Shown here: in pieces, positions 33,950 through 44,889 of the stretch
Layout of the letters: every line of letters begins with the position of its first letter
How positions within the stretch are numbered: position 1 is the first letter of the stretch
DNA from: Naegleria gruberi
Taxonomy: Eukaryota
DNA: 64,000 nt
Reading direction: 5' to 3' (one strand)
NCBI GenBank assembly: GCA_000004985.1
Contig: GG738861.1
Translations under genes and position numbers: made by a program
Notes under the pieces: generated by a model
Seen by the model: the letters and a program-made list of their open reading frames with translations, nothing else
The model's database searches: none
What the model was told of the DNA's origin: nothing

Positions 33950-36113
33950 ATGATGACCAATCACACCAGCAAGAAGGATGAATCATCCATTGTGTTTAGT
34001 GGATTCCTTCAACAGAAAGAGGGAAGTTTATTTAATCGATGGAAAAAGTAAGTAATAGCATTGCATTGTTTTTAACATTGTTGACGAATTGATTGGACGA
34101 AATGTGTAATATAGATATTGGTTTGTGTTGACAAAAGATGGAAAATTATTCAAATTTAAAAAACAAACAGAAAAGTTTACTCTCAATTGGAATGATAGTT
34201 CTCATCAACCAATTCAAGAATACATTCTCTCTCCGAATGATGATGTGGAAAATCAAAAATGTGAAATTCAAAGTGCAAAGAATATTTGTGGAAAGAATTA
34301 TAGTATGGCATTGACACTCTTCAATGGCAAGACCAATAATTCAATTCTATTAATGTTAATTGCTGAAAATCAATTGGAATATGAAGAGTGGTTTAATGTA
34401 TTTTACAAAATGATTCATTCTTCGGAAAATTCAAATTCAAATTCTCAACAAGTTAATCAAGTTGATAAGGAATATGAACAAATGAATGGGTTATTGAATG
34501 CAATTTTGGATGCTGCTGTCATTTCTGATACTTTGGGAACTATGTTAGCTGTCAATGAATCCATGACAAGTGTTTTTGGATATACGAAAGAGGAAATGAT
34601 TGGACAAAATGTTAAAATACTAATGCCATCTCATTTGGCAAGAATACACGATGAATATTTGCAAAGATATCTGAGGAGAAGAGATAAGAGATTAATTGGA
34701 AAATCTAGAAATGTTTTGGGAAAGAAATCTAATGGTGTGACATTTCCAGTTGAGATTTCACTTGGAGAAATGTCAAATACCTCAATGGAATCTATGAAAC
34801 CAGCTTATATTGCTGTGTTTAGAAGCAAGACATTCGAATCTTCTTTGGAAGAAAAGGAGCCAACCATGCACAAGTCATGGACAGTAGCTGCATTCCAAGA
34901 TGAAGATGAAAAGTCAACCGATTCAGAATCCAGTCAATCCAGTCAATCAAATTCATCTTGTTCCAATATTGCAGATGATCATACCTATTTGGATTATGAC
35001 GATCCAGATGTGCCCTATCAGCATCATGTCCAACAAGATTCTTGGCTTAATCATAGAACTTCTCTCAACTTGCAATTCGGCCACTTGATGAATCAACATC
35101 CTCAACAGCAGCAGCAGCATTGGTATCATGCAGAGAATCATTCACCACTCTCTAGTAGCCCCTCTTCTAATACTTCCTCAACCAGTTCAGTAACAAGCAA
35201 TGAAGATGTCTCTGATCCATTCCACGTATCTGGCATGGCTAGTAGTAATATGATATTGAAGAATTTACAATTTTCTGACTTTTCCAATTATGAATTGCAA
35301 CAAAATTTGACTAGAATAAGACTGAATAAGAAGAGGATGAAACAACAGGGAGATCATTTGAAGAGTTTGATGGATGAAATTCTCAATAGTGAATTTTCCT
35401 CTCTTCGAGTGAAGCTCATGCTCATGAAACATCAAGTCCAAGTGTTGGAAGAGGAAAATCAAGTTTTACAAAAACAAATGGACAATCAATATGAAACTTT
35501 ATTGATGAAAGAGCTAGAGTCGGGAATTTTAGAGAATGGTAATCCAGACAGCTATTTTTGGAAGAAACTAATCAAGGATAAGAATGTGTTTGAAGAATTG
35601 AAACGAATTGCGAAAGAGGAAAGACAATTGAGTCTGATTCAATTCCTGAGCAGAAGCATCAAATATGAAGAAGTATTCTCCGTTCAAAATTCCTCCAAAG
35701 AAGAACAGAAAAGTGTTCAAAGATTTATGAGAAATGAAGCAGAGGCCATTTGTGAAAAATTCTTTGGTATAAAGCCAGTTATAGACAATCAAGAGGCAGA
35801 TCAACACCACTCAATGATGCACTCTCAGTCCATGTCCACCATTGATGAATCTGAAAATGGTGGCCACAACAGTGGTAATAACAAATCTCATTCATCACGC
35901 AAACAAAGCATCATTCCAATTGCTCGCATCATGCTCTCCTCCAAGTGTGAAGACATTCTCAAATCCCACCTCCTATTCCCAACTCCCCAAATGTTCGATA
36001 TGGCTAACAGGGAAATTACTGAGCGATTGAAAAAAAAGACCTTTCAACAATATCTCATCACGGCCAAACAGGACCAACTCCAGATGGACAATCTCATTGA
36101 TACAATCCTCTGA
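33950..36113 (+). CDS. PH-domain + PAS-domain protein with a C-terminal coiled coil. Two exons with an intron at about 34048..34114.
   Basis: Exon 1 encodes MMTNHTSKKDESSIVFSGFLQQKEGSLFNRWKK before a GTAAGT donor. Exon 2 continues YWFVLTKDGKLFKFKKQ...ENQLEYEEWFNVFYKMI, a PH fold. Then a PAS-like block follows: LNAILDAAVISDTLGTMLAVNESMTSVFGYTKEEMIGQNVKILMP...FPVEISL. After that come a poly-Q/His-rich linker, coiled coil, and a C-terminal conserved region. Confidence 0.65.
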
Positions 36114-40606: not shown

Positions 40607-42184
40607 ATGAAGAGAGTCTATCCATTTGGCGACGAAGAAATTACTCGAACACAACAGCAAAGAAATCTTCAACAGCAGGAAAAATCAACTGCCAATGATT
40701 CAGGTTGTTGTTGTGTTGAGAATCAAACTGTGAAACGACAAAAACAATCGGCCTTCTTTCCAATCACTCAAAACTTTGTGAACATTCCCGATGATGTGCT
40801 AACACATGTATTCTTGCATTTCTTTGATATTTATTGGTTGTTTTCTGTGGGAAGATTGATATGTAAGGAGTGGAATGAACTGATCACCAAACAGATGGAT
40901 CGACTCGAGTTGGATTTGTGTTTCTCTGGTGATGAAATTTCAGAATCATTTGTTGATTGTGTGAAGAGTGGATCATTCTCTTGTTGTGTCTCTGATTTGA
41001 CCTTGTTACAAATTGAGGAGCCAGTCTATGTGATTAATCATCGTAATAGAAAAGCTAAGGATTTCAAGGATGTGATGAGGGGAGAAATTAATAGACAAAC
41101 AAAAAAGATTTCAACTGTTGCCTTGGTCTATTATTTCAATAATGTGGAATATTTGAATTTGAGATCGAATAGGATTGGAGTGGATGGAGCTTCAATGATG
41201 GGAAGTTTTACTTTGAAAAAATTGCAGGTTTTGGATTTGAGTGGTTCACACGAAGCTCCAAATATTGGAAAGGAAGGTTTTTTACAATTGACTAGTAACA
41301 TGGATTGGTCAAATTTTCCCAATTTGACAAGATTATCATTAGCTCAGAATAGATTGGATGCAGAAAGTATGATTTCATTGATTGCGTGTGAGACATTCCC
41401 ACGACTGAAAGCTCTGGATCTATTTGGAAACAAACTCGACAATGATGCAATCGAATGGTTGGTGGCTTCAGAAAGAGTTTTATCAAATTTGACCGAATTG
41501 AATATTGGTTACAATGAATATTTTGAGGAGGCAACCCATTTTATTGCCAACTGCCCATTCCTTAAAAATCTTGTCATTTTAAATATGGCAGGGAAGGTTT
41601 CATATCGTCATGGAGCTAAAAGTATTGGTGATAATGGTGTGAATACACTATTCAATTCAGATTATTTGGAAAATTTGACAAGTATTAATTTGAGTAATAA
41701 CAATGTGAGTGATGAGGGAGCAAAGAATATCTACAAATCAAACAAACTCAAGAATTTAACAAAGATCAATTTGAATAGTAATGTATTAACCTCAAGAGGA
41801 GCATCCTATTTGGCTCAGTCAAAATGCTTGGAAAAATTGAATTTTCTATTCCTTTCGTTTAATATGATTGAATCTTATGGGTGTAAGGTCATTTGTCAAC
41901 ATTTGAAGAATTTGAAAGAACTTTATTTAAGAGGGAATAGAATTCACAATTTGGGAGCTAAAGAAATATCTGAGAGTGTAAACTTGAAAAATATTGAAAT
42001 TCTTGATATTTCACTTAATAGATTTGGAGTTGAGGGTCTTCTACATCTTTCAACAAGCAAAATCTTGCCATCTGAAATTAAAACAGAATTTCAAGATCGT
42101 CTTTCCTTAATCTCTGGCGAATTTGTGGAAGACATTTACTCGGTAGAAGAAGAAAACCCCTCCATCATTGAAATTGAACATTAG
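40607..42184 (+). CDS. F-box protein with RNI-type leucine-rich repeats.
   Basis: F-box IPDDVLTHVFLHFFDIYWLFSVGRLICKEWNELI. About ten RNI/LRR_RI-like repeats follow: NLTELNIGYNE..., NLTSINLSNNNVSDEGAKNI..., LTKINLNSNVLTSRGASYLA..., LKELYLRGNRIHNLGAKEI.... Confidence 0.65.
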   Translation: MKRVYPFGDEEITRTQQQRNLQQQEKSTANDSGCCCVENQTVKRQKQSAFFPITQNFVNIPDDVLTHVFLHFFDIYWLFSVGRLICKEWNELITKQMDRLELDLCFSGDEISESFVDCVKSGSFSCCVSDLTLLQIEEPVYVINHRNRKAKDFKDVMRGEINRQTKKISTVALVYYFNNVEYLNLRSNRIGVDGASMMGSFTLKKLQVLDLSGSHEAPNIGKEGFLQLTSNMDWSNFPNLTRLSLAQNRLDAESMISLIACETFPRLKALDLFGNKLDNDAIEWLVASERVLSNLTELNIGYNEYFEEATHFIANCPFLKNLVILNMAGKVSYRHGAKSIGDNGVNTLFNSDYLENLTSINLSNNNVSDEGAKNIYKSNKLKNLTKINLNSNVLTSRGASYLAQSKCLEKLNFLFLSFNMIESYGCKVICQHLKNLKELYLRGNRIHNLGAKEISESVNLKNIEILDISLNRFGVEGLLHLSTSKILPSEIKTEFQDRLSLISGEFVEDIYSVEEENPSIIEIEH

Positions 42185-42275: not shown

Positions 42276-44889
42276 TTACTTTTCTGTGGCCATATAGACT
42301 CCTGTCCAATTTTCAGGAGGCATTGGTAATTCACCACTCATATACATGCAACATCTTGACATCATTTCTTGAGATGGTCCATCATCTGGATACTCTTCAA
42401 GGAATATCTCAAATTCTTTTAGGGCTGTTTTAAAATCTCTCTTCCAATAATGGGTTTCTAGAATGGTTGCATAACGATCACACATTCTTTGTACTTCATC
42501 TCCAATTTCTAATCTTTGACCGACTGGAGAATAGATTCTTCTTCCAATTGCTTTTCCTTTAACAGCAACGCAGTCAATCAGTCTGCAAACAACTAATGTC
42601 TTTACCTTTTCATAACAAGTATCAGAGATAAGCATATTGGTTGAATAGAGCTTGTTAATTCCTTCTAATCTTGCAGCCAAATTCACAGTATCTCCAATGC
42701 AAGTGTATGAATATCTATAACTAGATCCAATATTTCCCACAAGGCAATCACCTAATTACATTTTGAAAGATTAGAACCACTAAATACTTACCAACACTTA
42801 TTCCAATTCTTGTATATAATTGAGGCAAGTTATGCTTGATAAATCTCTTGTTGAGAAGATTTAGCATTTTCTGAATATCAAGAGCTGACTTAACTGCCAA
42901 ATATTCATACTTTTCAATAGTATCTGGAGCATTGAATAGAACCATCAACGCATCACCTATTTTCAAATTATATTTAAATTATAGTATCTTAATAAACATA
43001 CCAATAAATTTGTCCAAAACTCCCTTATTTTTGTAAATGATGGTACAAGTCTTTTCAAAATAAATATTCAACATTTTGATAAGCACACCTGGTTCCAATT
43101 GTTCTGAAATAGTTGTAAATCCCTTAATATCACTGAAAAATATAGCCATTTTCTTGCTCCTTACACCTAGCTCAAAACTTGATTGATCCCCTTTCATAAA
43201 TGTGCTGACAATTTCCACTGGTACATATTTCATAAATCCCTTCATTACAGAGCTCATTCTTGAAAAGTGGTCCTGCAAAACAAAAACTTCATAAAATATA
43301 GAGTTTCTTCCTTGATCCTCAACCTTTTCCAAGTCCATATCTTGTTCTTGATCATTTCTATCAGATTCTGAAGCTCTAGAAGTAACTTCACTAATCAAAT
43401 CAGCGGTATCAATTTGAATATTTTGCAATTCCTCCATTTTCTTTCCCAGTTGTGTTAATGGACTGGTTACAAAATAAGAAATTATAATTCCCACCACCAA
43501 AGAAATAACTACCACCAAAGAATCTACTATTAACACAACATCTCTCAATGTATACACATTTCCCATGTAGTCGTCTATTGCAATGAAAATCATACACTTC
43601 CAATCCAAACCGTACTTGTCTTTAATGTCTACCACCTCTAATCTGTACTCTGCTCCATTGACGTAGAATTTTGTTAATGGAATTGAGACATTTACCAAAG
43701 AAGTTCCATATGTGTGAATCAATTCAGATCCAATCTTGGCAACAGTTGGGATACTACTTTCATTCAATCTCTTTTTTTGAATAAACCCTTCTGCCTCCAA
43801 ATCAAATATAAAAATTGTATCGTTCAATTTGGAAGTGGCAACAATAACCATATCCTTGCTTTGGACAACATAGATAAACGAGTTCTTACTAATTTCTAAA
43901 TTTTGATACAAAAATATAGAAACACTTGCAAGATCCATATCCACTGATATCAATACATTCATTTCAGGCTCCAGTGTTTTGGTGTACTTGTTTAAAACAA
44001 TATTACTTTCATTCTTGATTGGAAAATAGGAACTGACCCAATAAAAACCATCCTTATCACAATAGGCATCCCCCCATGTTATTTTACCTAGTATGTTTCC
44101 CTGCTTCCACCAATACAAATCGTCCAAGTGGTTCACATAATAATTGTCACAATAATCAACTGGATCAGGAACGACATCAGTCCTTGCATCAATACTAGTC
44201 ACCTCATAGGTTCCATTAACCCAACAACCATCTCGATAAACATCTATAGCTGGTAGCCCTCTATCAGACCAAAACAAGCCAATATAAAGGTCATCCTTTC
44301 TAGTATATGACACATATGAGACGTTATTCACCACAAATTGAGCAAAAAGTGTTGAATAAATCTTACTGTACTCGAACGGTACAATTTCCTCATTGTACAA
44401 ACTTCTTCCCACGCTCTCTGTAATTCTGAAAGGAGCTGCCATAAAATTGGAAATAAATTCTGATGCTGAAAATTTTAAATTAGAACCCATCACTTTGGTA
44501 AATTCCTCAATAGACTGTTGTTGTACAGAAAGTGTGATGGCAAAGATGGTGAGTGTTGAAATTAATGATAGCAAAACAATACTAAGGGAAAAGCAGCATT
44601 TGATGGAGAGAATCTTTTTCAAAGATTTTGCTACATCCCTATGATTATCATGAAGCTCCACTTTTACCTCTTCCTTATCAATCTTGGAATCGGCTGTTTT
44701 CAACACTTGATTTTTACTAGTAAATATTTCCTCAACAGAATCCCGCATATTCACTCCATGAGCCAAATGCCCTTGTGAATCCTCTTGACGAGTTCTCTGC
44801 CAGGAGGATCTTGAATTCGTTAAATTTTCCTTCCTTACAACTTCTAGAGATTCATTGGAGGGAGAGGGTGTAATTTTACTCATTCCCAT
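42276..44889 (-). CDS. Receptor-type class III adenylyl/guanylyl cyclase: TM helix, ~330-aa extracytoplasmic domain, TM helix, cyclase homology domain. Three exons at about 43002..44889, 42792..42956 and 42276..42751.
   Basis: TM1 is CCFSLSIVLLSLISTLTIFAITL. TM2 is VVLIVDSLVVVISLVVGIIISYFV. The cyclase domain is ...MAIFFSDIKGFTTISEQLEPGVLIKMLNIYFEKTCTIIYKNKGVLDKFIG then an intron, DALMVLFNAPD...YTRIGISVG then an intron, DCLVGNIGSSYRYSYTCIGDTVNLAARLEGINK.... The metal-binding D...D residues and the transition-state N/R are in context. Both introns run GTATGT or GTAAGT to AG and keep the conserved motifs contiguous. Confidence 0.8.

What the first reader, a model, noticed from the sequence alone, without database searches (positions are those of the whole stretch)
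42276..44889. Receptor-type class III nucleotidyl cyclase with a large extracytoplasmic sensor domain
The architecture is TM, ~330-aa extracellular domain, TM, then a single cyclase homology domain. That is the layout of trypanosomatid and some protist or early-fungal receptor adenylyl cyclases. It is not the 12-TM metazoan or soluble fungal Cyr1 types. The extracytoplasmic domain is Cys- and Tyr/Trp-rich (...DGCWVNGTYEVTS...YCDNYYVNHLDDLYWWKQG...) and could be a ligand-binding sensor of unknown specificity. The two introns fall exactly inside the conserved catalytic motifs. Catalysis would need homodimerisation.
Basis: partly seen in the sequence, partly recalled or inferred. Interest (0 to 1): 0.5.

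Follow-up and report, generated by a model that had tools for sequence, protein, structure and literature searches.

The report
Naegleria double-Cache sensor adenylate cyclase
This is a correctly read three-exon Naegleria gruberi gene for a membrane adenylate cyclase; its "unknown" outer sensor is a divergent double-Cache (dCache_1) domain, a bacterial-type receptor design already reported for Naegleria, so it is an unannotated member of a known kind.

Summary
The gene is real, on the minus strand at 42276-44889, with three exons and two GT-AG introns of 45 and 40 nt. My splice model gives an 842-aa protein that is 100% identical to N. gruberi XP_002678650.1 / D2VBH3, annotated "predicted protein". 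The layout is a cytosolic N-terminus, TM1, a 328-aa outer domain, TM2, a HAMP-like linker, a class III cyclase domain and a 90-aa helical tail.

All six canonical catalytic residues are present (D587, D631, K627, T701, N708, R712). The Lys/Thr pair and the best structural match, P. aeruginosa CyaB, predict an active class IIIb adenylate cyclase that works as a homodimer.

The outer domain gets no direct Pfam hit, but three lines of evidence identify it as dCache_1:
- Exhaustive HMMER hits are mostly Pfam-positive dCache_1 proteins.
- hhalign gives probability 99.9%, E 1.6e-36.
- An AlphaFold model (pLDDT 90) matches only double-Cache chemoreceptor domains in the PDB.

The trypanosomatid comparison is wrong, because those enzymes have one TM helix and Venus-flytrap domains. 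The domain is also not Cys-rich (4 Cys).

The ligand is unknown. The amino-acid motif lacks its carboxylate-binding Arg (Leu258) but keeps the amino-group contacts Tyr276 and Asp317. Bacterial-type dCache_1 cyclases in Naegleria were already described in 2016 and 2019.

The parts
42276..44889 (-). Whole CDS (842 codons plus stop) of N. gruberi NAEGRDRAFT_66217 / XP_002678650.1 / D2VBH3
   Evidence: Splice model. It is 100% identical to P0001; accessions.
43002..44889 (-). Exon 1 (aa 1-629 plus the first base of Gly630)
42957..43001 (-). Intron 1: 45 nt, GT..AG, phase 1, inside KFIG|DALM just before metal-binding Asp631
   Evidence: An in-frame stop follows if the intron is retained.
42792..42956 (-). 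Exon 2 (aa 630-684 plus the first base of Gly685)
42752..42791 (-). Intron 2: 40 nt, GT..AG, phase 1, inside ISVG|DCLVGNIG
42276..42751 (-). Exon 3 (aa 685-842 plus the TAA stop at 42278-42276)
44599..44889 (-). N-terminal cytosolic region, aa 1-97, with no recognised domain. It is Lys/Arg-rich just before TM1, which fits the positive-inside rule.
44524..44598 (-). TM1, about aa 98-122
   Evidence: Kyte-Doolittle 19-residue windows above 1.6.
43540..44523 (-). Extracytoplasmic divergent dCache_1 (double Cache / tandem PDC) sensor domain, aa 123-450
   Evidence: 36 of the 46 scanned proteins (45 phmmer hits plus the query) carry Pfam dCache_1. hhalign probability 99.9%, E 1.6e-36. AF2 pLDDT 90.2. 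The Foldseek top 50 are almost all dCache ligand-binding domains.
43939..44139 (-). Predicted membrane-distal ligand pocket. Equivalents of the PctA residues: Y251 (Y121), L258 (R126), W260 (W128), W261 (Y129), Y276 (Y144), D317 (D173).
   Evidence: Motif definition from PMC8915833. Mapped through the PctA chain 5ltx_A and the columns of alignment A4.
43468..43539 (-). TM2, about aa 451-474
43246..43467 (-). HAMP-like linker, aa 475-548: AS1 is PLTQLGKKMEELQNI and AS2 is FYEVFVLQDHFSRMSSVM. The connector holds a ~36-aa acidic insertion, aa 494-529.
   Evidence: hhalign against Pfam-HAMP-positive bacterial segments: probability 85.9%, E 5e-6. No direct Pfam HAMP hit. Low AF2 confidence as a monomer.
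43159..43245 (-). Helical segment directly before the catalytic domain, aa 549-577 (GFMKYVPVEIVSTFMKG...). It is conserved in bacterial homologues and is the inferred cyclase-transducer-element position.
   Evidence: Alignment A5. The assignment to the transducer element rests on general knowledge, not on a test here.
42552..43158 (-). Class III (IIIb) cyclase catalytic domain, aa 578-751, interrupted by both introns. Residues: D587, D631 (metal); K627, T701 (adenine); N708, R712 (transition state).
   Evidence: Pfam PF00211, E 2.3e-20. PDB CyaB 3r5g, E 3.3e-34. Foldseek TM 0.88, 37% identity. Residue conservation in A5; positions.
42279..42551 (-). C-terminal ~90-aa three-helix tail, aa 752-842, ending ...RC..(P)PP..W.GV....K. 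It is shared with bacterial dCache- and CHASE2-coupled cyclases.
   Evidence: BLASTP of the tail against the C-termini of P0002 (E 6e-8) and P0007 (E 1e-6). Alignment A5. AF2 helices with pLDDT above 90.

Best explanation
The gene encodes a bacterial-type transmembrane receptor adenylate cyclase of Naegleria gruberi. From N- to C-terminus it has a cytosolic N-terminus, TM1, an extracellular double-Cache (dCache_1) sensor, TM2, a HAMP-like linker, a short transducer helix, a class IIIb catalytic domain and a conserved helical tail.

Shown here: the gene structure, the topology signals, the dCache_1 identity of the sensor, the presence of all six catalytic residues with the Lys/Thr adenine-specifying pair, and the shared tail.

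Inferred from how these families are known to work:
- The protein is a homodimer.
- A small molecule binds the membrane-distal module of the dCache_1 domain.
- The resulting movement passes through TM2 and the HAMP-like bundle to the helices before the catalytic domains.
- This changes how the two catalytic domains pack. Two symmetric ATP sites sit at their interface, so cAMP synthesis changes.

The ligand is unknown. The pocket keeps the Tyr/Asp pair that contacts an amino group in amino-acid and amine sensors (Y276, D317) and the aromatic W260. The Arg that binds the carboxylate is replaced by Leu258. A canonical amino-acid ligand is therefore unlikely.
For: Gene model:
- The model equals the annotated 842-aa protein.
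- Neighbouring genes are eukaryotic (WASH7, AMP deaminase, GH31, FYVE, LRR), and the gene has spliceosomal introns, so it is not bacterial contamination.

Sensor domain:
- phmmer with the ectodomain alone against 1.84 billion representatives gave 45 hits. Of the 46 proteins then scanned (the 45 hits plus the query), 36 carry Pfam dCache_1 and 34 carry MCP-like_PDC_1.
- A pairwise alignment to a Pfam-positive dCache_1 histidine kinase gave E 2e-8.
- hhalign of the eukaryote-clade ectodomains against 11 Pfam-positive dCache_1 domains gave probability 99.9%, E 1.6e-36, over 297 columns end to end.
- The AF2 model has pLDDT 90.2 and pTM 0.88, with a long N-terminal helix followed by two alpha/beta modules.
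- The Foldseek PDB top 50 are almost all double-Cache ligand-binding domains (PctA, PctB, PctC, TlpQ, TlpC, Mlp24/37, Tlp3, mmHK1S-Z3), at E about 1e-9 and target TM about 0.7.

Catalytic domain:
- PF00211 at E 2.3e-20.
- The best PDB sequence and fold match is P. aeruginosa CyaB, followed by Cya2, CyaC, bPAC and OaPAC.
- K627, D631, T701, N708 and R712 are invariant in 14 homologues. D587 is present in 12 of 14.

Linker and tail:
- The linker matches HAMP at hhalign probability 86%.
- The tail is shared with bacterial cyclases.

Literature:
- A 'bacterial-type adenylate cyclase' with a Cache domain is described in Naegleria (PMC4822843).
- A eukaryotic NCIII subfamily with TM, HAMP and Cache1, related to N. 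gruberi genes, is described (PMC6366073).
Against: - Pfam's own dCache_1 and HAMP models do not hit this protein even at E up to 10. Family membership therefore rests on transitive, profile-profile and fold evidence.
- The bacterial sequences used in the hhalign test and in the AF2 alignment were chosen because they matched the query. This favours the result somewhat.
- The AF2 alignment was dominated by bacterial dCache_1 sequences.
- The HAMP-like connector carries a ~36-aa insertion and folds with low confidence as a monomer.
- There is no expression, activity, localisation or ligand data.
- Adenylate versus guanylate specificity, and signalling through TM2 and HAMP, are inferred from residues and from family precedent only.
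Confidence: 0.82

Rival explanations
1. One reading: a trypanosomatid or protist-style receptor adenylate cyclase whose ectodomain is a new sensor of no known family.
For: It has a single catalytic domain behind a membrane anchor. There is no direct Pfam, NCBIfam-equivalog or PDB sequence hit for the ectodomain.
Against: Trypanosomatid cyclases have one TM helix and a ~90 kDa ectodomain with two Venus-flytrap domains (PMC6027212). Here the sensor lies between two TM helices and is dCache_1 by three independent routes. The closest cyclase domains and the C-terminal tail are of the bacterial IIIb kind.
Confidence: 0.03
2. The sensor is a canonical amino-acid receptor (dCache_1AA), like PctA or the calcium-channel alpha2delta subunit.
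For: The top fold matches are amino-acid chemoreceptors. Y121, W128, Y144 and D173 equivalents are present. dCache_1AA proteins are reported in Heterolobosea (PMC8915833).
Against: The R126 equivalent is Leu258. It is L/M/I/M/Q in all five eukaryote-clade sequences and never Arg. R126A lowers PctA affinity 61-fold (PMC8915833). Y129 is replaced by Trp.
Confidence: 0.07
3. The sensor binds an amine or another cationic small molecule (dCache_1AM-like). The amino-group contacts are kept and the carboxylate contact is lost.
For: In amine sensors the D173, W128 and Y144 equivalents are kept and the R126 position is not conserved (PMC10589655). This is the pattern seen here.
Against: The full AM_motif, including extra aromatic and charged positions, could not be checked because the motif figure is not held. 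Loss of Arg is also common among dCache_1 domains with quite different ligands: about half of the bacterial rows in A4 lack it.
Confidence: 0.15
4. The ectodomain does not bind a specific ligand. It reports a physical cue such as osmolarity, pH or membrane state, as proposed for yeast Sln1.
For: A dCache_1 domain is found in the osmosensor Sln1 (PMC4822843).
Against: The distal-pocket residues W260, Y276 and D317 are invariant across the eukaryote clade at 26-47% overall identity. This argues that the pocket is retained.
Confidence: 0.1
5. It is a guanylate cyclase, or a catalytically dead pseudo-cyclase.
For: One close structural neighbour, Cya2, is a guanylate cyclase.
Against: The specificity positions are Lys627 and Thr701, not Glu/Cys or Glu/Gly. 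Both metal Asp residues and the Asn/Arg pair are present and conserved.
Confidence: 0.05

Closest known systems
N. gruberi dCache_1-Guanylate_cyc proteins D2VLR9 (894 aa) and D2V3A4 (745 aa), the 'bacterial-type adenylate cyclase' of Naegleria in Upadhyay et al. 2016 (PMC4822843)
   Same: Same organism and the same Pfam domain pair (dCache_1 and Guanylate_cyc).
   Different: D2VBH3, this gene, was not found in the held (truncated) supplement. The current Pfam dCache_1 model does not reach it. I could not fetch the two paralogues, so their degree of relatedness was not measured.
Pan-eukaryotic nucleotidylcyclase III subfamily with TM, HAMP and Cache1 domains (Ebenezer et al. 2019, Euglena genome, PMC6366073)
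   Same: The same architecture class, stated to be closely related to N. gruberi NCIII genes.
   Different: That paper gives only a domain-level description. It does not analyse this protein, its pocket or its tail.
Bacterial dCache_1-coupled class IIIb adenylate cyclases, such as metagenomic P0002 (dCache_1 + Guanylate_cyc, 27% identity over 90% of the query) and the L. pneumophila dCache_1AA cyclase tested in PMC8915833
   Same: TM, dCache_1, TM, HAMP-like linker, IIIb catalytic domain and the same C-terminal ...RC..PP..W.GV....K tail.
   Different: The Naegleria gene has spliceosomal introns, a long cytosolic N-terminus, an acidic insertion in the linker, N-glycosylation sequons and a more divergent sensor without the carboxylate-binding Arg. 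P0002 additionally carries an N-terminal SDF transporter domain.
P. aeruginosa CyaB catalytic domain (PDB 3r5g)
   Same: Best sequence match (E 3.3e-34) and best fold match (TM 0.88, 37% identity). It has the same Lys/Thr class IIIb signature.
   Different: The solved CyaB chain (198 aa) aligns only to the catalytic domain (query 45-237 of the aa 532-842 segment) and does not cover the C-terminal tail. The rest of CyaB was not compared.
PctA, PctB, PctC, Tlp3 and Mlp37 double-Cache chemoreceptor ligand-binding domains
   Same: Same fold and the same placement between two TM helices. They share the Y, W, Y and D pocket positions.
   Different: Only 10-14% sequence identity. The output is a cyclase rather than an MCP signalling domain. 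Arg126 is Leu here. There is an extra ~30-residue loop (aa ~217-257) of lower model confidence.
Trypanosomatid receptor-type adenylate cyclases (e.g. ESAG4, GRESAG4)
   Same: Eukaryotic, with a single class III catalytic domain that must dimerise and a large ectodomain.
   Different: They have one TM helix, a ~90 kDa ectodomain with two Venus-flytrap domains and their own C-terminal region (PMC6027212).

Membership tests
Class III nucleotidyl cyclase (Pfam PF00211) | Match to the catalytic-domain model above the gathering score | tested here: met
   73.4 bits against a cutoff of 21.9, E 2.3e-20, aa 578-751. 48 PDB cyclase chains at E<=1e-3.
Class III nucleotidyl cyclase (Pfam PF00211) | Two metal-binding Asp residues plus the transition-state Asn and Arg | tested here: met
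   D587 (FFSD), D631 (KFIGD), N708 and R712 (VNLAARLE). They align with CyaB and are conserved in A5.
Class IIIb adenylate cyclase | Lys plus Thr/Ser (instead of Asp) at the two substrate-specifying positions. The definition comes from established knowledge of class III subclasses. | tested here: met
   K627 and T701 are invariant in 14 homologues. The closest structures are CyaB, CyaC, bPAC and OaPAC, which I take to be class IIIb enzymes.
Class IIIb adenylate cyclase | Measured ATP to cAMP activity | not testable with these tools
   Needs an enzyme assay.
dCache_1 (Pfam PF02743) | Direct match to the Pfam model at the gathering score | tested here: not met
   No hit even at E<=10 for the whole protein or the isolated ectodomain. 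Two clade members, P0069 and P0073, reach only E about 1e-3 and 19 bits against a cutoff of 45.
dCache_1 (Pfam PF02743) | Homology to bona fide members by sensitive sequence comparison | tested here: met
   36 of the 46 scanned proteins (45 phmmer hits plus the query) are Pfam dCache_1. hhalign probability 99.9%, E 1.6e-36, 297 columns. BLASTP E 2e-8 to P0013.
dCache_1 (Pfam PF02743) | Long N-terminal helix followed by two PDC (alpha/beta) modules | tested here: met
   AF2 pLDDT 90.2 with the expected secondary-structure order. The Foldseek top 50 are almost all double-Cache domains.
dCache_1 (Pfam PF02743) | Extracytoplasmic location between two TM helices, with the C-terminal TM leading to the output module | tested here: met
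   TM1 at 98-122 and TM2 at 451-474; 6 sequons in between. Actual membrane topology was not tested experimentally.
dCache_1AA (amino-acid sensor; Gumerov et al. 2022) | AA_motif: Y121, R126, W128, Y129, Y144, D173 (PctA numbering) | tested here: not met
   The residues are Y251, L258, W260, W261, Y276 and D317. The Arg is missing here and in all five eukaryote-clade sequences.
dCache_1AM (amine sensor; Cerna-Vargas et al. 2023) | Full AM_motif | tested here: inconclusive
   The shared positions (D173, W128 and Y144 equivalents) are present and the R126 position is not Arg, as in amine sensors. The remaining motif positions are defined in a figure that is not held.
HAMP domain (Pfam PF00672) | Two amphipathic helices (AS1, AS2) joined by a connector, directly after TM2 | tested here: inconclusive
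   No Pfam hit. hhalign probability 85.9%, E 5e-6, over 44 columns against HAMP-positive segments. The P-L-x2-L-x3-M and E-V-x2-L-x3-F-x2-M patterns are present, but there is a ~36-aa insertion and low AF2 confidence.
Trypanosomatid receptor-type adenylate cyclase | Single TM helix, with an N-terminal ectodomain containing Venus-flytrap (PBP-like) domains | tested here: not met
   There are two TM helices and the ectodomain fold is dCache, not VFT. The family definition is from PMC6027212.
CHASE / CHASE2-coupled cyclases | CHASE-family ectodomain | tested here: not met
   No CHASE or CHASE2 Pfam hit. The CHASE2 cyclases P0003-P0007 align only over the catalytic domain and tail, 34-37% of the query.

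The most novel reading that the evidence does not exclude
This protein may belong to a eukaryote-specific, strongly diverged clade of uninterrupted dCache_1-cyclase receptors. Members are N. gruberi, N. fowleri, Willaertia magna and unidentified eukaryotes in metagenomes. In this clade the pocket has consistently swapped the carboxylate-binding Arg for a hydrophobic residue while keeping the amino-group contacts. That would make it an amine or other non-amino-acid chemoreceptor that couples an external cue directly to cAMP in an amoeba. It would also be a counter-example to the published statement that all eukaryotic dCache_1 proteins carry a VWA insertion (PMC8915833).
Probability: 0.12. Interest if true: 0.45.

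Novelty: new member of a known kind. Interest (0 to 1): 0.2.

Why it matters
The practical gain is an annotation. A "predicted protein" becomes a dCache_1 / HAMP-like / class IIIb adenylate cyclase with named catalytic and pocket residues. The case also shows that the Pfam dCache_1 model misses a diverged eukaryotic clade.

Biologically, it adds one concrete, testable receptor to the large and almost uncharacterised cyclase repertoire of Naegleria. The ectodomain (aa 123-450) can be screened for ligands. The L258/D317 pocket gives a specific hypothesis that the ligand is not an amino acid and may be an amine.

It does not overturn anything. The architecture, and its presence in Naegleria, were published in 2016 and 2019.

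Tried and rejected
- Direct Pfam and NCBIfam scans of the ectodomain found nothing useful. The only results were a 12.7-bit Reg_prop hit and a 26.8-bit partial GepA match against a cutoff of 1200.
- phmmer of the ectodomain against PDB sequences gave only chance-level hits. A 5-sequence clade profile reached a 'Cache domain protein' (9hvj) only at E 0.029.
- The word-indexed protein search with the ectodomain alone returned nothing, not even the query's own database entry. I treat this as a limit of the index, not as evidence.
- The afdb50 fold library was unavailable. The taxonomic spread of the fold among eukaryotes could therefore not be surveyed.
- I looked for this accession (D2VBH3, XP_002678650, NAEGRDRAFT_66217) in the literature and in the held supplements of PMC4822843 and found nothing. 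Attempts to find the third NAEGR entry in that supplement failed.
- Bacterial contamination or a recent un-intronised transfer was considered and rejected. The gene has two spliceosomal introns, its neighbours are eukaryotic, and there are homologues in Willaertia and N. fowleri.
- A second cyclase gene or tandem paralogue in the window was sought by tblastn and none was found.
Full report

Yes. On the minus strand an ORF starts at the ATG at 44889 and runs to 42979. Two further ORFs continue the same protein down to 42276.

The breaks are two short GT..AG introns: 43001-42957 (45 nt) and 42791-42752 (40 nt). Removing them restores two of the most conserved motifs of class III cyclases, KFIG|DALM and ISVG|DCLVGNIG. 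Both introns are phase 1 and split a Gly codon. If intron 1 is retained, a stop follows after nine codons.

The spliced CDS is 2529 nt and encodes 842 aa. It is 100% identical over its full length to NCBI XP_002678650.1 / EFC45906.1 / UniProt D2VBH3 (NAEGRDRAFT_66217), a 'predicted protein' of Naegleria gruberi on a 507-kb scaffold. The window has 34.5% G+C.

The neighbouring ORFs encode typical eukaryotic proteins: an LRR protein, WASH complex subunit 7, a GH31 glycosidase, AMP deaminase, a FYVE protein and an AAA ATPase. The gene is therefore a genuine nuclear gene and not contamination. No second cyclase gene lies in the window.

**2. Anatomy**

Hydropathy gives two TM segments, about aa 98-122 and 451-474.
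- The N-terminal 97 residues have no recognised domain. They end in a Lys/Arg-rich stretch, which fits a cytosolic location.
- The 328 residues between the TM helices carry six N-x-S/T sequons.
- That segment has 24 Tyr and 7 Trp but only 4 Cys.

After TM2 come three further parts.

(i) A segment with the HAMP pattern. AS1 is P477-L-T-Q-L-G-K-K-M-E-E-L and AS2 is E534-V-F-V-L-Q-D-H-F-S-R-M.
- In N. gruberi the connector holds a ~36-aa acidic insertion (aa 494-529) that short homologues lack.
- Pfam HAMP does not hit.
- A profile of this segment from seven clade members matches Pfam-HAMP-positive bacterial segments with hhalign probability 85.9%, E 5e-6.
- I call it HAMP-like and leave membership open.

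(ii) A conserved helix, GFMKYVPVEIVSTF, directly before the catalytic domain.

(iii) The catalytic domain, aa 578-751 (Pfam PF00211, 73.4 bits, E 2.3e-20).

(iv) A ~90-aa tail.
- AlphaFold predicts three confident helices.
- It aligns end to end with the C-termini of bacterial cyclases: P0002 at E 6e-8 and P0007 at E 1e-6.
- It shares the terminal ...RC..(P)PP..W.GV....K signature with them.

**3. Catalytic competence and specificity**

Against PDB sequences the best match is P. aeruginosa CyaB (3r5g, E 3.3e-34). Next come Cya2, OaPAC and bPAC, and Spirulina CyaC. The predicted structure superposes on CyaB with TM 0.88, rmsd 2.7 A and 37% identity.

The six canonical residues are all present, with positions:
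- D587 (FFSD) and D631 (KFIGD) for the metals.
- K627 and T701 at the two base-specifying positions.
- N708 and R712 (VNLAARLE) for the transition state.

K627, D631, T701, N708 and R712 are invariant in an alignment of 14 homologues. D587 is present in 12 of them.

By established knowledge of class III cyclases, Lys plus Thr (instead of Asp) marks subclass IIIb adenylate cyclases. Guanylate cyclases have Glu plus Cys or Gly. The prediction is an active adenylate cyclase. With a single catalytic domain it must form a head-to-tail homodimer with two symmetric sites. It is not a pseudo-cyclase.

**4. The ectodomain is a divergent dCache_1 domain**

Direct scans fail. Pfam finds nothing at E<=10, NCBIfam gives only a partial 26.8-bit match to GepA, and PDB phmmer gives only noise. 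More sensitive evidence agrees on dCache_1.

(a) The only full-length relative in the first search, P0002 (27% identity over 90% of the query), carries Pfam dCache_1, MCP-like_PDC_1 and Guanylate_cyc. A cyanobacterial dCache_1 histidine kinase, P0013, aligns to ectodomain residues 67-323 at E 2e-8. The alignment includes the motif KD(K/Q)YGLDW just before TM2.

(b) An exhaustive phmmer search with the ectodomain alone against 1.84 billion representatives gave 45 hits at E<=1e-3. Of the 46 proteins then scanned (the 45 hits plus the query), 36 carry Pfam dCache_1, 34 carry MCP-like_PDC_1 and 28 carry HAMP. Their outputs are the usual bacterial ones: histidine kinase, GGDEF/EAL, MCP, SpoIIE and cyclase.

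(c) hhalign of the five closest ectodomains against 11 Pfam-positive dCache_1 domains gave probability 99.9%, E 1.6e-36, over 297 aligned columns covering both domains end to end.

(d) An AlphaFold2 model of aa 118-452 (29-sequence alignment) has mean pLDDT 90.2 and pTM 0.88. It shows a long N-terminal helix followed by two alpha/beta modules. Nearly all of its 50 best Foldseek matches in the PDB are double-Cache ligand-binding domains: PctA, PctB, PctC, PctD, TlpQ, TlpC, Mlp24, Mlp37, Tlp3, CtaA, PscC and the Methanosarcina mmHK1S-Z2/Z3 kinases. They match at E about 1e-9 to 1e-7 and target-normalised TM about 0.6-0.7.

Caveats:
- The bacterial sequences in (c) and in the AF2 alignment were picked because they matched the query, so these tests are not fully independent.
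- The Pfam model itself does not reach the protein.

Even so, the end-to-end profile match and the fold leave little room for another reading.

**5. Relatives**

The closest ectodomains belong to the following:
- An unnamed metagenomic protein (P0066, 47% identity) on a contig with a Kelch gene.
- Willaertia magna proteins (P0067 at 41%, P0068 at 30%).
- A truncated N. fowleri model (P0070).
- Two metagenomic 'adenylate cyclases', P0069 and P0073. Their contigs carry EF-hand, RING, GST and ICAT genes and so look eukaryotic.

All have the same post-TM2 linker, catalytic domain and tail. Pfam dCache_1 reaches at most 19 bits in this clade. By contrast, P0002 sits on a tightly packed contig that looks bacterial. 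So this is a diverged eukaryotic clade of a bacterial-type design. Whether it arose by transfer or is old in eukaryotes was not resolved here.

**6. What might it sense?**

Gumerov et al. 2022 (PMC8915833) define the amino-acid-binding motif of dCache_1 in PctA numbering. Y121, R126 and W128 (plus Y129) contact the carboxylate. Y144 and D173 contact the amino group. R126A lowers affinity 61-fold and D173A abolishes binding.

I checked the register on the PctA chain itself and read the same columns in my alignment:
- The Naegleria protein has Y251, L258, W260, W261, Y276 and D317.
- In all five eukaryote-clade sequences the R126 position is L, M, I, M or Q.
- In those five sequences the W128, Y144 and D173 equivalents are invariant.

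The protein therefore fails the amino-acid-sensor motif at its key Arg.

Cerna-Vargas et al. 2023 (PMC10589655) report that amine-binding dCache_1 domains keep the D173, W128 and Y144 equivalents and do not conserve R126. The pattern here is compatible with that. I could not check the rest of the amine motif, and loss of the Arg is common among dCache_1 domains generally. I give an amine or cationic ligand about 15%, a canonical amino acid about 7%, and leave the rest to other small molecules or physical cues.

**7. Mechanism**

Shown:
- A two-TM topology signal with a dCache_1 domain outside.
- A HAMP-like linker.
- A complete IIIb catalytic centre.

Inferred from the known behaviour of dCache_1 receptors and HAMP-coupled class III cyclases:
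- A homodimer forms.
- A ligand binds the membrane-distal module.
- TM2 is displaced and the HAMP-like bundle and the pre-catalytic helices rearrange.
- The register of the two catalytic domains changes, and so does cAMP output.

The role of the conserved tail is unknown.

**8. Comparison with what is known**

The trypanosomatid comparison does not hold. Those enzymes have one TM helix and a ~90 kDa ectodomain with two Venus-flytrap domains (PMC6027212).

The correct comparison is with bacterial dCache_1-coupled cyclases, and the kind has already been reported in this organism:
- Upadhyay et al. 2016 state that in Naegleria the Cache domain occurs in 'a bacterial-type adenylate cyclase'. Their data list D2VLR9 and D2V3A4 as dCache_1 + Guanylate_cyc (PMC4822843).
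- Ebenezer et al. 2019 describe a eukaryotic cyclase subfamily with TM, HAMP and Cache1 domains, closely related to N. gruberi genes (PMC6366073).
- D2VBH3 itself was not found in the held part of those data, nor anywhere in the searchable literature.

It is therefore a new, more divergent member of a known kind.

One small point of friction with the literature remains. Gumerov et al. write that all eukaryotic dCache_1 proteins have a VWA insertion. This ectodomain is uninterrupted.

**9. Verdict**

The finding is ordinary in kind, with useful annotation value. Interest 0.2.

Noticed in passing
window 43303-43410 (aa 494-529): A ~36-residue acidic, low-complexity insertion (DTADLISEVTSRASESDRNDQEQDMDLEKVEDQGRN) sits in the connector of the HAMP-like linker. 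Homologues from Willaertia (P0068) and N. fowleri (P0070) lack it, while P0066 and P0067 have unrelated insertions of similar or greater length. Whether a HAMP bundle tolerates this is unknown.
   Followed up: partly
window 42279-42551 (aa 752-842): A conserved three-helix C-terminal tail ends ...RC..(P)PP..W.GV....K. It is shared between the eukaryote clade and bacterial dCache- and CHASE2-coupled cyclases (P0002, P0003-P0007). It has no Pfam family and no function known to me.
   Followed up: partly
window 44119-44241 (aa ~217-257): An extra loop in the membrane-distal module, relative to bacterial dCache_1, has lower model confidence (pLDDT 63-77). It contains Cys222 and Cys247, which could form a disulfide. 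Both Cys are kept in P0066 but not in the Willaertia homologues.
   Followed up: no
L004 1496-3859; L001 161-2359; L003 2171-4156: The closest homologues on metagenomic contigs that look eukaryotic are called as single uninterrupted ORFs (787, 732 and 661 aa). The N. gruberi gene has two introns in the catalytic domain. The introns are therefore not shared across the clade.
   Followed up: partly
window 34125-36113 (+): A 662-aa ORF has a PAS domain (aa ~119-232; PAS_9 E 3e-9) and long Ser/Gln-rich regions. No output domain was recognised.
   Followed up: no
window 40607-42184 (+) and 42276 (-): A 525-aa LRR protein (LRR_6, LRR_4, LRR_8) converges on the cyclase gene. The two stop codons are only about 90 bp apart, so the 3' UTRs must be very short or overlap.
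   Followed up: no
literature (PMC8915833 section 12; PMC4822843 section 11 and supplement file 12): Two published statements sit uneasily with the data. [quoted passage not shown] Second, Cache in Naegleria is said to be 'in a single protein', but the same paper's table lists at least D2VLR9 and D2V3A4.
   Followed up: partly
tool behaviour: The word-indexed protein search with the 328-aa ectodomain returned no hit at E<=10. Even the query's own database entry (P0001), which the full-length query found, was missed. A negative from that tool with a short divergent query is not informative.
   Followed up: no
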